Shown here one piece after another: positions 44,801-47,800 of a stretch of DNA of 64,000 bases. This DNA is from Escherichia coli (GTDB lineage: Bacteria; Pseudomonadota; Gammaproteobacteria; Enterobacterales; Enterobacteriaceae): the NCBI RefSeq assembly GCF_030013205.1, contig NZ_CP122648.1; one strand, written 5' to 3'. Made by a program: the position numbers. The stretch's first letter is position 1, and each line of letters starts with the position of its first letter.

Positions 44801-47800
44801 AGGTGTTACACCATTATCAAACAGGTAGTTAACACCACCACGCCAGGTAAACTGTTTGTCATCACGTTTATCGGTCGTTCCCGCTACGCGGTTAAGAGAT
44901 TCTTGATCTGCCCAGTCGTAACGACCGCCCAGGGTGACCAGCACTTTATCCCACTGCGCCTGATCCTGAACATAAACGCCCGTTTGCTTCTGCTTATTCA
45001 GAATGCGGTACGGACCGGAGTTATCCGGGTCTTTCGCATTGAAGTCGAAATCGGTATTCACCGGATTGTACAGATCGAGCAGCGGTACGGAGTCGTCGTA
45101 ACCAAACCAGGCGTTGATGTCATTACGCATACGCATAAAGTCGACACCGGTCAGCAGGGTGTGGTCGATATCGCCAGTGGCAAACTTGCTCTGCAACTGG
45201 GTATCAACGGAGAAGTTTTGCAGCTTCTCATCATCAACGACGTATTTACGTGCTAGGTAGTGACCTTTATCGGCTGGCGCTAAAGCGGCACACTGTTTGC
45301 TGTAAGCATTCGCCGGATCGGAGCAGACGCCGTAACCATAAACGCTGTTTTGCGAGGTTTTGTTTTCAGCAAAGCGCAGGTTCTGACGCACAGTAAAGGT
45401 GTCGTTAAATTCGTGATCGAAGCTATAGCCCACCATCTTCTCATTACGAGAATAGGTGTTGTTCTTCGCCCCTTCGTTAAAATCTGTCGGCAGACGCTTA
45501 CCGTTCGGCAGCGGCTCAACGGTACCCTCTTTCGGCAACCAGCCGTAATAACCGGTTTCCGGCTCGTTCTGGAAGTAAGAAAGGAAGGTGAAATTGGTTT
45601 TATCATCCGGACGCCAGGTGAACGCCGGTGCAATAGCATAACGCTGCTCTTCTGAGCCTTTCTGCTGGGCATTGGCAGAACGCGCAAGACCGGTCAGGCG
45701 ATAAGAGTAAACACCGTCATCATCCAACGCATCGCTAAAGTCAAAACCAGTCTGGAACAGGCTGTCAGTACCGGCTTTAAACTGAACTTCTTTCAGCGGT
45801 TCAGTAGTCGGACGCTTGCTGACCATATTCAACAGACCGCCAGGACTGCTTTTACCGTAAAGCACGGAAACCGGGCCACGCATAATTTCAGCGCGTTCCA
45901 GCATATACGGGTCAATGACCGCATCGTTATAGAAGTTGCCCTGCAACTTCAGGCCATTCAGATAGTTATTCTGGCTTTGGCCTTCTGCCGCAAAGCCGCG
46001 AATGATCAGGTGGTCATAGGTGTTGGATGCGCCACGCGTACCAACAGAGACACCCGGCGTGTAGCTAAGCGCCTCTTTTACTGACTTCGGCTGATGCAGC
46101 GCCATCTCTTCGGCGGTCACAACAGAAATAGACTGTGGCACTTTTTGAATCGGCGTATCAGTTTTGGTGCCGGTAGCGGACTGTCGCGCCGCAATAGTTG
46201 CAGCTGGCCCCCATGCGCTTTCTTGCGGCGCAGGTGCAGCGGTAACGGTGATAGTGTCTTCTTTCGGTTCAACCGCTGCCTGTGCATAAACAGACATGCC
46301 GCTAACCGCTGTGGCTACTACAACTGCGATTTTACGCAGTGAGTGTTTTGGCTGAGCAGTTTTGGAACGCGCCATTGGTATATCTCTGATGTAAAGTGAA
46401 TGATAACGTAAACGAGAATGATTATTATAAAGATAAGATAATATTCGAAACGCTGGCGGGTTCGCAAGCGGTACGCAATCTGAGCGTTCCTGAAGGGTTA
46501 ATAAACAACCAGATGAAAAGAAAGGGTTAATACTTTGGGTGGGATGTTATTTTACCGGATGGCTACTCGCCATCCGGTATGTCACGCTTAGACGTTAATT
46601 ACTACCAAACATATCCTTGATCCAACCGGCTACACCGTCGCTGTCTTTCTGCTCTTGCTGAGCAGGTTGCTGTTGCGGCTGTTGCTGCGGCTGAGAAGAC
46701 TGATCAAACGGATTGCCTGACGGCTGCTGCTGCATCTCACTCTGCTGGCACAGCGATTGCGGATCGCTGGTCCAGACCGGCAAGACACGCATACCACCGC
46801 TGCAAACAAAGTTGCCGTCGTAGTCCACGCCCATATCTGCAATATCTTCTGGCGGAACAAGATTTAGCGGCGTTGGCGTCTGGTTAGCCAGATAACGCTG
46901 ATAAATCGACATTGCCCCGCTGGCTCCATACAGTTTGGTCGGCTGGTTGTTATCACGGCCGACCCAGGTGATGGTCACCGTGCTGCCGTCAATGCCCGCA
47001 AACCAGGTATCTACGTTATTGTTGGTAGTCCCTGTTTTCCCTGCCAGATGCAGGTTCGGGTATTTCGCCCCAAGCTGACGCCCCGTACCACGTTGTACCA
47101 CCTGCTGCATGGTCCATAGTGTCAGATATGCCGCCTGCGCCGGAACCGCGCGTTCTGCCTGCGGGAAGCTCTGATACAGCACCTTGCCATCTTCTGCGAT
47201 GACTGAACGCAGCGCAGAAAGCGGTGCACGGTTACCACCGCTGGCGATGGTCTGGAATGCCTGCGCCACTTCGATTGGCGTTAAGTTCAACGCCCCCAGC
47301 AGCATTGCCGGAACCGGATGCAGCTGATCTTTCGGTACGCCCAGTTTAATCCAGGTCTCCGTAACCGCAGGCAGCCCCAGCGCCATCCCCAGATTCACCG
47401 TCGGCACGTTCATCGAACGGGTCAACGCATCCACCAGCATCACTCTGCCGCTTTCGCTATAACGACGGTCATCGTTCTGCGGTGACCAGACCTGGCCATT
47501 CGGCTGACGTAGCGCGATTGGCGCATCCGCAATCCACGTGTTCAGGCGATAGATTTTCGGCTGGCTTAAGGCCGTCAGATAAGTCGCTGGTTTTGCAAGA
47601 GAACCAATCGAACGACGCGCCTGCATCGCACGGTTGTAGCCCGCAAACTGCGGCTCAGAACCACCGACCATCGCACGAACTTCACCACTAAAGCGGTCGA
47701 CGACCACAATCGCAGTTTCAAGATCGCTCAACTTACGCTGTTTCTTCAGTGCCGGAATGCCTTCCACGGCGGCTTTTTCTGCCGCGTCCTGGGCCACCGA

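What the first reader, a model, noticed from the sequence alone, without database searches (positions are those of the whole stretch)
46553..46580. Stable hairpin in the mrcB 3' flank, on the far side of the fhuA promoter
ACCGGATGG-ctactcg-CCATCCGGT forms a 9-bp perfect stem just after the mrcB stop, about 170 bp upstream of the fhuA start on the same strand. It probably insulates the Fur-regulated fhuA promoter from mrcB read-through, but it has no U-tract on the transcribed strand.
Basis: seen in the sequence. Interest (0 to 1): 0.2.

Follow-up and report, generated by a model that had tools for sequence, protein, structure and literature searches.

The report
mrcB mRNA 3'-end protective hairpin
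This is the stem-loop that forms the stable 3' end of the E. coli mrcB (PBP1b) messenger RNA, an ordinary and already described kind of element whose RNA end has already been mapped in published data.

Summary
The hairpin is real. It is slightly larger than reported: an 11-bp perfect stem and 5-nt loop at window 46553-46579 on the minus strand. It starts 15 nt after the mrcB stop and ends 177 nt before the fhuA ATG. Folding gives -21.7 kcal/mol (z = -6.2). No U-tract follows on either strand.

Published 3'-end mapping in K-12 (PMC10687069) places the primary mrcB RNA terminus 4-6 nt after this stem, with low local read-through (signal 0.83-0.98). So the hairpin marks the mrcB transcript end.

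It fits the class of Dar & Sorek 2018: U-less stem-loops that protect Rho-terminated mRNAs from 3' exonucleases. Supporting evidence:
- A C-rich, G-poor tract follows it.
- A near-identical twin after ygiC has a mapped 3' end and bicyclomycin-sensitive read-through.
- The stem is invariant across Escherichia while the loop and flanks vary.
- Fimbrial-island strains carry a different U-less hairpin at the same place.
- Most other Enterobacteriaceae have a canonical intrinsic terminator there.

Rho dependence at mrcB itself is inferred, not shown.

Minor extra: the same arms and loop recur at ygiC/ygiD and yfiF/ung. Overall the finding is ordinary and of low interest.

The parts
46553..46579 (-). 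Complete stem-loop, 27 nt: UACCGGAUGGC-GAGUA-GCCAUCCGGUA on the transcribed strand
   Evidence: -21.7 kcal/mol, z -6.18. Present in 4849 of 5426 complete E. coli genomes.
46569..46579 (-). 5' arm of the stem (UACCGGAUGGC)
   Evidence: Invariant in 10 distinct Escherichia haplotypes.
46564..46568 (-). Loop (GAGUA here; GAGUU, GAGCU or GAAUU in other strains)
   Evidence: 3 of the 5 loop positions vary among Escherichia haplotypes.
46553..46563 (-). 3' arm of the stem (GCCAUCCGGUA)
   Evidence: Invariant in 10 haplotypes.
46580..46594 (-). 15-nt spacer between the mrcB stop codon and the stem; 4 variable sites among haplotypes
46547..46549 (-). Positions equivalent to the mapped primary mrcB RNA 3' terminus in K-12 (167310-167312), 4-6 nt after the stem
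   Evidence: PMC10687069 Supplementary Data 2-4. The K-12 and window sequences are identical over these bases.
46513..46552 (-). C-rich, G-poor tract directly 3' of the hairpin (12 C, 1 G in 40 nt); candidate Rho loading (rut-like) region. It overlaps the start of the conserved fhuA upstream block.
   Evidence: top 0.8% of all 40-nt windows for C minus G. For the conservation caveat.
46595..49129 (-). mrcB (PBP1b) coding sequence whose mRNA the hairpin ends
46438..46467 (-). Predicted sigma-70 promoter of fhuA (TTGCGA-18-TATTAT), 86 nt downstream of the hairpin. Context only, not part of the hairpin.
   Evidence: This stretch is conserved across genera.
44132..46375 (-). fhuA coding sequence (downstream neighbour; context)

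Best explanation
The hairpin is the 3'-terminal stem-loop of the mrcB mRNA.

Shown: in vivo, mrcB transcripts end 4-6 nt after this stem, with little RNA signal beyond it.

Inferred: the stem has no U-tract, so RNA polymerase mostly transcribes through it. Rho then loads on the untranslated, C-rich, G-poor RNA that follows and terminates transcription within roughly the next 100-200 nt, before or around the fhuA promoter. The 3'-5' exonucleases PNPase and RNase II trim the tail back until the 11-bp stem blocks them. This leaves a precise, stable 3' end that protects the mrcB message.

The net effect is twofold. mrcB mRNA gets a defined and protected end. mrcB transcription is also uncoupled from the Fur-regulated fhuA unit. 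In this model the uncoupling is done by Rho and the hairpin does the end-protection.
For: 1. Mapped 3' end. PMC10687069 lists a 'Primary' mrcB terminus with dominant position 167310/167312 (+), peak 167305-167316, and signal 0.83, 0.97 and 0.98 in different datasets. Its predicted fold is exactly this stem, and the maximum U run is 2. The signal is R = L/(L+D), i.e. 1 minus read-through.

2. Class properties. Dar & Sorek 2018 (PMC6061677) show that Rho-dependent E. coli transcripts end immediately after stable stem-loops without U-rich tails. These stems are followed by C-over-G enrichment, and the ends are produced by PNPase/RNase II trimming. Here the stem is -21.7 kcal/mol, the tail is AAAAUAAC, and the next 40 nt hold 12 C and 1 G, which is the top 0.8% of windows.

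3. Twin element. A 26-nt hairpin with the same 11-bp arms and loop GAGU lies after ygiC at K-12 3181589-3181614. Its 3' end is mapped 3-6 nt after the stem in two independent studies. A Rho termination region lies 215 nt downstream, with Rho score 3.98 and p = 4e-19; read-through rises from 0.21 to 0.84 with bicyclomycin.

4. Selection on the structure. There are 0 variable sites in 22 stem positions, against 20 in the 78 other positions of the first 100 nt after the stop, among 10 Escherichia haplotypes including cryptic clades (Fisher one-sided p = 0.004).

5. Functional replacement. In the ~577 E. coli genomes and in E. albertii that carry a fimbrial operon between mrcB and fhuA, a different hairpin sits at the same place (GCUCUCCGC-UUAU-GCGGAGAGC, -22.9 kcal/mol, again without a U-tract).

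6. Other species. All 78 Enterobacteriaceae loci that could be scored have a stable stem-loop within ~100 nt after the mrcB stop. At least 54 pass a strict test for a hairpin plus T-tract.
Against: - Rho dependence at mrcB itself is not demonstrated. The bicyclomycin DirectRNA-seq list of Adams et al. has no significant Rho region on the + strand between 152074 and 173376. That test is weak here, because mrcB is lowly expressed and fhuA has its own promoter inside the downstream window.
- Adams et al.'s Term-seq tables, as held, list no 3' end at 16727x-16732x.
- The C-rich tract belongs to a block upstream of fhuA that is conserved even in species with a canonical intrinsic terminator after mrcB. 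Its composition may therefore serve fhuA regulation rather than Rho loading.
- A 3' end 4-6 nt past the stem is also compatible with termination at the hairpin followed by slight trimming.
Confidence: 0.6

Rival explanations
1. Non-canonical intrinsic terminator. The strong 11-bp hairpin, followed by an all-A/U stretch (AAAAUAA) that forms a weak RNA:DNA hybrid, makes RNA polymerase pause and release by itself, perhaps helped by NusA or NusG. The mapped end would then be the true termination point.
For: The 3' end lies 4-6 nt after the stem, with signal up to 0.98. Most relatives have a true intrinsic terminator at this position, so a decayed but still partly active terminator is plausible. 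No bicyclomycin-sensitive region is listed here. Dar & Sorek discuss mixed or transitional cases.
Against: There is only 1 U in the 8 nt after the stem, and the site fails the terminator scan. The twin hairpin with the same stem and a richer tail (AAUUGUUA) is read through at about 84% when Rho is inhibited.
Confidence: 0.25
2. A REP-like dispersed palindromic repeat, either a remnant or a mini-member of a mobile or duplicated element family. Its presence after mrcB would then reflect insertion or gene-conversion history, possibly with a DNA-level role such as a protein-binding site. Any RNA effect would be incidental.
For: The same arms and nearly the same loop occur at ygiC/ygiD and at yfiF/ung. 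The stem base CCGGATG/CATCCGG is the same as in REP elements, and three CCGGAT...ATCCGG hairpins lie in this window against 0.05 expected. Both the mrcB and the ygiC copies sit in segments that are replaced wholesale, starting exactly at the stop codon, in other strains.
Against: There is no GTAG/CTAC flank. The palindrome is perfect and short rather than an imperfect ~35-nt REP. Only three copies were found. RNA 3' ends map to two of the copies, and the stem is under constraint while the loop varies. This origin does not exclude the RNA function above.
Confidence: 0.08
3. A translation-coupled regulator. A stable hairpin close to the stop codon hinders terminating ribosomes and lowers PBP1b output through stalling and trans-translation, as reported for REP elements within 15 nt of a stop codon (Liang, Rudd & Deutscher 2015; cited from my own knowledge, paper not retrieved).
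For: The spacer is exactly 15 nt here. It is 10-11 nt for the alternative hairpin, and 7 and 4 nt for ygiC and ygiD.
Against: A 15-nt spacer places the stem at or beyond the leading edge of a ribosome sitting on the stop codon. Spacer length is not conserved among species. There are no data on PBP1b tagging.
Confidence: 0.05
4. A chance palindrome with no function.
For: None beyond the absence of a U-tract.
Against: statistics; mapped RNA end; invariant stem.
Confidence: 0.01

Closest known systems
[quoted passage not shown] 2012)
   Same: A stable GC-rich stem-loop just after the stop codon. No U-rich tail and no upstream A-tract pairing partner. The steady-state RNA 3' end lies a few nt after the stem. 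C-over-G enrichment follows downstream.
   Different: Rho dependence and exonuclease trimming have not been shown for mrcB itself. The downstream C-rich tract doubles as a conserved fhuA upstream block.
Canonical intrinsic terminators found after mrcB in Citrobacter, Enterobacter, Klebsiella, Kluyvera, Kosakonia, Raoultella and others
   Same: Same position between the mrcB stop and the conserved fhuA upstream block. Similar stem length and stability.
   Different: Those have a run of 5-9 T after the stem, often with an A-run before it. The Escherichia hairpin has AAAATAAC after it and there is no sequence homology.
REP (repetitive extragenic palindromic) elements, present after mrcB in Salmonella enterica subsp. 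arizonae and diarizonae, Citrobacter amalonaticus and Pseudescherichia
   Same: Extragenic location at a gene's 3' end. Stem base CCGGATG/CATCCGG. Known to stabilise upstream mRNA and to associate with Rho-dependent ends.
   Different: Shorter, with a perfect stem. No CTAC/GTAG tail and no characteristic internal mismatches. Only about 3 related copies were seen, not hundreds.

Membership tests
Intrinsic (Rho-independent) terminator | GC-rich stem-loop in the nascent RNA | tested here: met
   11-bp stem with 7 G-C pairs, -21.7 kcal/mol.
Intrinsic (Rho-independent) terminator | 7-8 nt U-rich tract immediately 3' of the stem | tested here: not met
   The tail is AAAAUAAC, with 1 U in 8. The site is not called by the terminator scans. 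The TRS table gives a maximum U run of 2.
Intrinsic (Rho-independent) terminator | Termination without Rho | not testable with these tools
   Needs in vitro transcription or targeted bicyclomycin data. The twin hairpin is read through when Rho is inhibited.
Protective 3' stem-loop of Rho-dependent transcripts (Dar & Sorek class) | Stable stem-loop not followed by a U-rich sequence | tested here: met
Protective 3' stem-loop of Rho-dependent transcripts (Dar & Sorek class) | Precise steady-state RNA 3' end immediately downstream of the stem | tested here: met
   Published mapping in K-12: 167310-167312, 4-6 nt after the stem end, signal 0.83-0.98.
Protective 3' stem-loop of Rho-dependent transcripts (Dar & Sorek class) | C-rich, G-poor (rut-like) sequence downstream | tested here: met
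   12 C and 1 G in the next 40 nt, top 0.8% of windows. Caveat: this tract is conserved for other reasons too.
Protective 3' stem-loop of Rho-dependent transcripts (Dar & Sorek class) | Read-through increases when Rho is inhibited | tested here: inconclusive
   No significant region is listed near mrcB/fhuA in Adams et al. Supplementary file 2, but that test has low power here. It is met for the twin after ygiC and for the erpA hairpin in this window (position 177151).
Protective 3' stem-loop of Rho-dependent transcripts (Dar & Sorek class) | 3' extension in pnp or rnb mutants | not testable with these tools
   The supplement of PMC6061677 is not held.
REP / BIME elements | Match to the ~35-nt imperfect-palindrome consensus, including the conserved GTAG/CTAC end | tested here: not met
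   Only CCGGATG and CATCCGG are shared. The flanks are ...GACA and AAAT.... Compare the REPs after mrcB in Salmonella and C. amalonaticus, which end in CCGGCCTAC.
REP / BIME elements | High copy number, often clustered | tested here: inconclusive
   Three related copies were found. No whole-genome census was possible. The K-12 annotation in the collection shows no repeat features even at a known REP, so it is uninformative.
Stop-codon-proximal REP translational down-regulation (Liang et al. 2015, from memory) | Stable palindrome within 15 nt of the stop codon | tested here: inconclusive
   The spacer is exactly 15 nt, which is borderline. There are no tagging data.

The most novel reading that the evidence does not exclude
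The palindrome CCGGATGGC-(A)ACTC(T)-GCCATCCGG may be a small, previously unnamed family of portable '3'-end cassettes' in Escherichia. At least three copies exist: mrcB 3', ygiC/ygiD and yfiF/ung. They may be copied or exchanged between gene ends. Two of the copies lie in short modules that start exactly at a stop codon and are swapped for other hairpin-bearing sequence in other strains. This would point to a mechanism, REP/RAYT-like or gene-conversion-like, that supplies U-less protective hairpins to genes.
Probability: 0.15. Interest if true: 0.4.

Novelty: already known. Interest (0 to 1): 0.15.

Why it matters
The practical value is for annotation. mrcB and fhuA are separate transcription units, and the mrcB 3' UTR is about 48 nt, ending at this stem.

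The locus also illustrates terminator turnover clearly. The same slot after mrcB is filled by canonical intrinsic terminators, REP elements, or one of two unrelated U-less hairpins, depending on lineage, while the adjacent fhuA control region stays conserved. This matches Dar & Sorek's suggestion that genes switch easily between Rho-independent and Rho-dependent ends.

It does not open a new question. The recurrence of the same hairpin at three gene ends is a small curiosity that could be followed up cheaply.

Tried and rejected
- **Rfam.** A permissive cmscan of 46300-46700 gave only two chance hits with E > 3, to eukaryotic families.
- **Consensus terminator scan.** It does not call this site on either strand.
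- **K-12 annotation.** No repeat feature is listed at the site. A positive control at the folA-apaH REP also shows none, so this negative result is uninformative and was dropped.
- **Metagenome scan.** Most hits were unrelated high-GC organisms, as expected for an 18-base palindromic pattern. Only the mrcB, ygiC/ygiD and yfiF/ung loci were E. coli.
- **Literature.** Searches for mrcB + fhuA + terminator, mrcB + bicyclomycin, and fhuA promoter + mrcB found nothing relevant. The only paper printing part of the sequence appears to use it in a primer; this was not checked.
- **Supplements.** None are held for Dar & Sorek 2018 or Nadiras 2018. There is no mrcB entry in the TERMITe tables or in the 72-terminator study.
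- **Adams et al. 2021.** Their Term-seq tables list no 3' end at the mrcB hairpin, and their Rho list has no region there.
- **Covariation.** No compensatory changes could be scored, because the stem never varies within Escherichia and is not homologous outside it.
- **Third BLAST match.** The third 'place' per genome reported could not be listed directly. It is probably the yfiF/ung copy.

Full report
**1. What is in the sequence**

Both genes lie on the minus strand of the window. mrcB occupies 46595-49129 and fhuA occupies 44132-46375. The region is 97.7% identical to K-12 hrpB'-mrcB-fhuA, and the intergenic 219 bp is identical in length to that of K-12.

Read on the transcribed strand, the sequence after the stop is UAA-CGUCUAAGCGUGACA-[UACCGGAUGGC-GAGUA-GCCAUCCGGUA]-AAAUAACAUCCCACCC....

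- It folds at -21.7 kcal/mol, z = -6.18, and none of 200 dinucleotide shuffles folds as well.
- The motif is expected 0.00 times in shuffles of the window.
- The window holds 7 distinct perfect hairpins with stems of at least 10 bp (13 counting nested variants), against 0.41 in shuffles.
- No U-tract follows on either strand, and the terminator scan does not call the site.
- Rfam has nothing here.

**2. Published RNA-end data**

Bar et al. [quoted passage not shown] Their tables list a 'Primary' 3' terminus for mrcB:

- The peak spans 167305-167316 and the dominant position is 167310 or 167312.
- The signal is 0.83, 0.97 and 0.98 in different datasets.
- The predicted fold is exactly this stem (-20.9 kcal/mol in K-12), and the longest U run is 2.

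The signal is R = L/(L+D), where L counts RNA ends at the site and D counts RNA ends downstream. It equals 1 minus local read-through. The K-12 stem ends at 167306, so the RNA ends 4-6 nt after it. That corresponds to window 46549-46547.

The Term-seq tables of Adams et al. 2021, as held, do not list this end. Their bicyclomycin list has no Rho region on the + strand between 152074 and 173376. That comparison has little power here, because mrcB is weakly expressed and fhuA's own promoter lies inside the downstream window.

**3. Comparative evidence**

*(a) Within E. coli.* The hairpin is present in 4849 of 5426 complete genomes. I compared 10 distinct Escherichia haplotypes, including two cryptic-clade genomes and metagenomic copies. 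The 22 stem positions show no variation. By contrast, 3 of 5 loop positions, 4 of 15 spacer positions and 13 downstream positions vary. That is 0 of 22 against 20 of 78, one-sided Fisher p = 0.004.

*(b) Strains without this hairpin.* The roughly 577 E. coli genomes that lack it, and E. albertii, carry a four-gene chaperone-usher fimbrial operon between mrcB and fhuA. In these genomes the sequence differs from the first base after the mrcB stop codon. A different hairpin sits at the same place: GCUCUCCGC-UUAU-GCGGAGAGC, -22.9 kcal/mol, again with no U-tract. Homology to the window resumes 58 nt after the stop.

*(c) Other Enterobacteriaceae.* A search for PBP1b returned 80 species, of which 78 loci could be scored.

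- All 78 have a stable stem-loop within about 100 nt after the mrcB stop.
- At least 54 pass a strict test for a hairpin plus at least 5 T in 8 nt. Several of the others fail only because of long loops.
- Salmonella enterica subsp. arizonae and diarizonae, Citrobacter amalonaticus and Pseudescherichia have REP elements at this position.
- In 56 of these loci fhuA follows directly. About 160 nt upstream of fhuA is then well conserved across genera. This block contains the predicted -35/-10, the Fur-box-like sequence and a further upstream part, ATTAACCC...TTTTCATCTGGTTATTTCTTAACCC.

So a short, fast-evolving 'end-of-mrcB' module abuts a slowly evolving fhuA control region.

**4. The twin hairpin and what it says about mechanism**

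A 26-nt hairpin with the same 11-bp arms and loop GAGU lies between the convergent genes ygiC and ygiD, at K-12 3181589-3181614.

- Two independent studies map the ygiC 3' end 3-6 nt after it: 3181617 in Adams et al., and 3181618/3181620 in Bar et al..
- Adams et al. also report a Rho termination region 215 nt further downstream, at 3181832, with Rho score 3.98 and p = 4e-19.
- Coverage there, downstream versus upstream, is 56 versus 266 without bicyclomycin and 316 versus 377 with it.

So when Rho is inhibited most transcripts run through this same stem. The stem therefore does not stop RNA polymerase efficiently; it marks where the stable RNA end forms.

The erpA/yadS hairpin in this window (36991-37017) behaves the same way. 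It has a mapped erpA end at 176995 and a Rho region at 177151 with score 16.7.

This is the behaviour described by Dar & Sorek 2018. Rho-dependent transcripts end just after stable stem-loops without U-tails. C-over-G enrichment lies downstream. The ends are generated by PNPase/RNase II trimming.

The 40 nt after the mrcB hairpin contain 12 C and 1 G, which is the top 0.8% of all 40-nt windows here. One caveat applies: this tract is part of the conserved fhuA upstream block, so its composition may have another cause.

**5. Best explanation and rivals**

That the hairpin defines the mrcB mRNA 3' end is shown. That termination is by Rho downstream, followed by trimming back to the stem, is inferred by analogy and composition. 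I put this full model at about 0.6.

- Main rival (about 0.25): a decayed intrinsic terminator that still releases polymerase at the weak A/U hybrid.
- A REP-like origin or a DNA-level role is possible but does not conflict with the RNA function (about 0.08).
- A ribosome-stalling role is borderline, given the 15-nt spacer (about 0.05).
- Chance is excluded.

The two units are separated at this point, but the hairpin is more likely the end-protector than the insulator. It belongs to mrcB rather than to fhuA.

**6. Comparison with known families**

- It fails the defining U-tract test for intrinsic terminators.
- It fails the REP consensus and CTAC tests.
- It meets three of the five defining features of the Dar & Sorek class. 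One is inconclusive and one is untestable here.

The kind is known, and this very RNA end and fold are already printed in a published supplementary table. I therefore file it as already known, with low interest (0.15).

**7. Small extra: a recurring hairpin**

The same 9-bp arms and nearly the same loop, (A)ACTC(T), recur at a third E. coli gene end, between the convergent genes yfiF and ung. The sequence there is GCCGGATGGC-AACTCT-GCCATCCGGC, present in 5423 genomes.

Looser CCGGAUG...CAUCCGG hairpins form the mapped 3' ends of pepD and deoR.

The ygiC copy, like the mrcB copy, lies in a segment that about 1500 genomes replace, starting exactly at the stop codon. The replacement is AT-rich DNA carrying another hairpin.

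Whether this reflects a small mobile or duplicated family is open. I give it 0.15.

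Noticed in passing
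K-12 NC_000913.3 3181589-3181614 (locus L209 189-214): A near-identical twin of the hairpin (same 11-bp arms, loop GAGU/ACUC) lies in the 37-nt gap between the convergent genes ygiC and ygiD. It has a mapped ygiC 3' end and a Rho termination region 215 nt downstream.
   Followed up: yes
L216 268-291 (E. coli Nissle yfiF/ung intergenic region; present in 5423 genomes): A third hairpin with the same 9-bp arms and loop AACTCT lies between the convergent genes yfiF and ung. It is flanked by weak U-rich tails on both strands. This suggests a small repeat family at gene 3' ends.
   Followed up: partly
L005 8385-13850 (E. coli strain 4/0); also L006, L009 (E. albertii): About 577 E. coli genomes and E. 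albertii carry a four-gene chaperone-usher fimbrial operon between mrcB and fhuA. It replaces the first 57 nt after the mrcB stop and has its own U-less hairpin, GCTCTCCGCttatGCGGAGAGC, at its left edge.
   Followed up: partly
window 46376-46537 (- strand): The ~160 nt upstream of fhuA is conserved across about 55 Enterobacteriaceae species. It includes the predicted promoter, the Fur-box-like stretch and an upstream block with two TTAACCC motifs 29 nt apart (46530-46524 and 46501-46495). In many genera a small CCCCT...AGGGG hairpin is also present. The function of the upstream block is unknown to me.
   Followed up: partly
window 36991-37017: A 12-bp perfect hairpin, AUGUGCCGGAUA-AAC-UAUCCGGCACAU (-18.9 kcal/mol), lies between the convergent genes erpA and yadS and is followed by CUUCUCUCUUC. 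K-12 data give an erpA 3' end at 176995 and a strong Rho region at 177151 (score 16.7). It is the same class as the mrcB hairpin.
   Followed up: partly
window 1027-1061: A REP-like imperfect palindrome, GCCGGATGCGACGtttgaaGCGTCTTATCCGGC, lies between two convergent ORFs. It ends in CTTTC rather than the canonical CCTAC. It is one of three CCGGAT...ATCCGG hairpins in the window (0.05 expected).
   Followed up: no
L210 482-530 (E. coli AR_451, after ygiC): In about 1500 E. coli genomes the ygiC-ygiD gap is replaced, from the ygiC stop codon onward, by AT-rich DNA. That DNA begins with another hairpin, UUGCCCCGauaagCGGGGCAA (-15.4 kcal/mol). This is the same allele-swap pattern as at mrcB.
   Followed up: partly
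window 31602-31629, 40387-40409, 59998-60027, 63394-63422: Four further perfect hairpins with stems of 10-13 bp. Their relation to gene ends was not examined.
   Followed up: no
NC_000913.3 50200-50500 (L215): The copy of the K-12 annotation in this collection lists no repeat_region at the folA-apaH REP. Absence of repeat annotation in this resource therefore cannot be used as evidence.
   Followed up: yes
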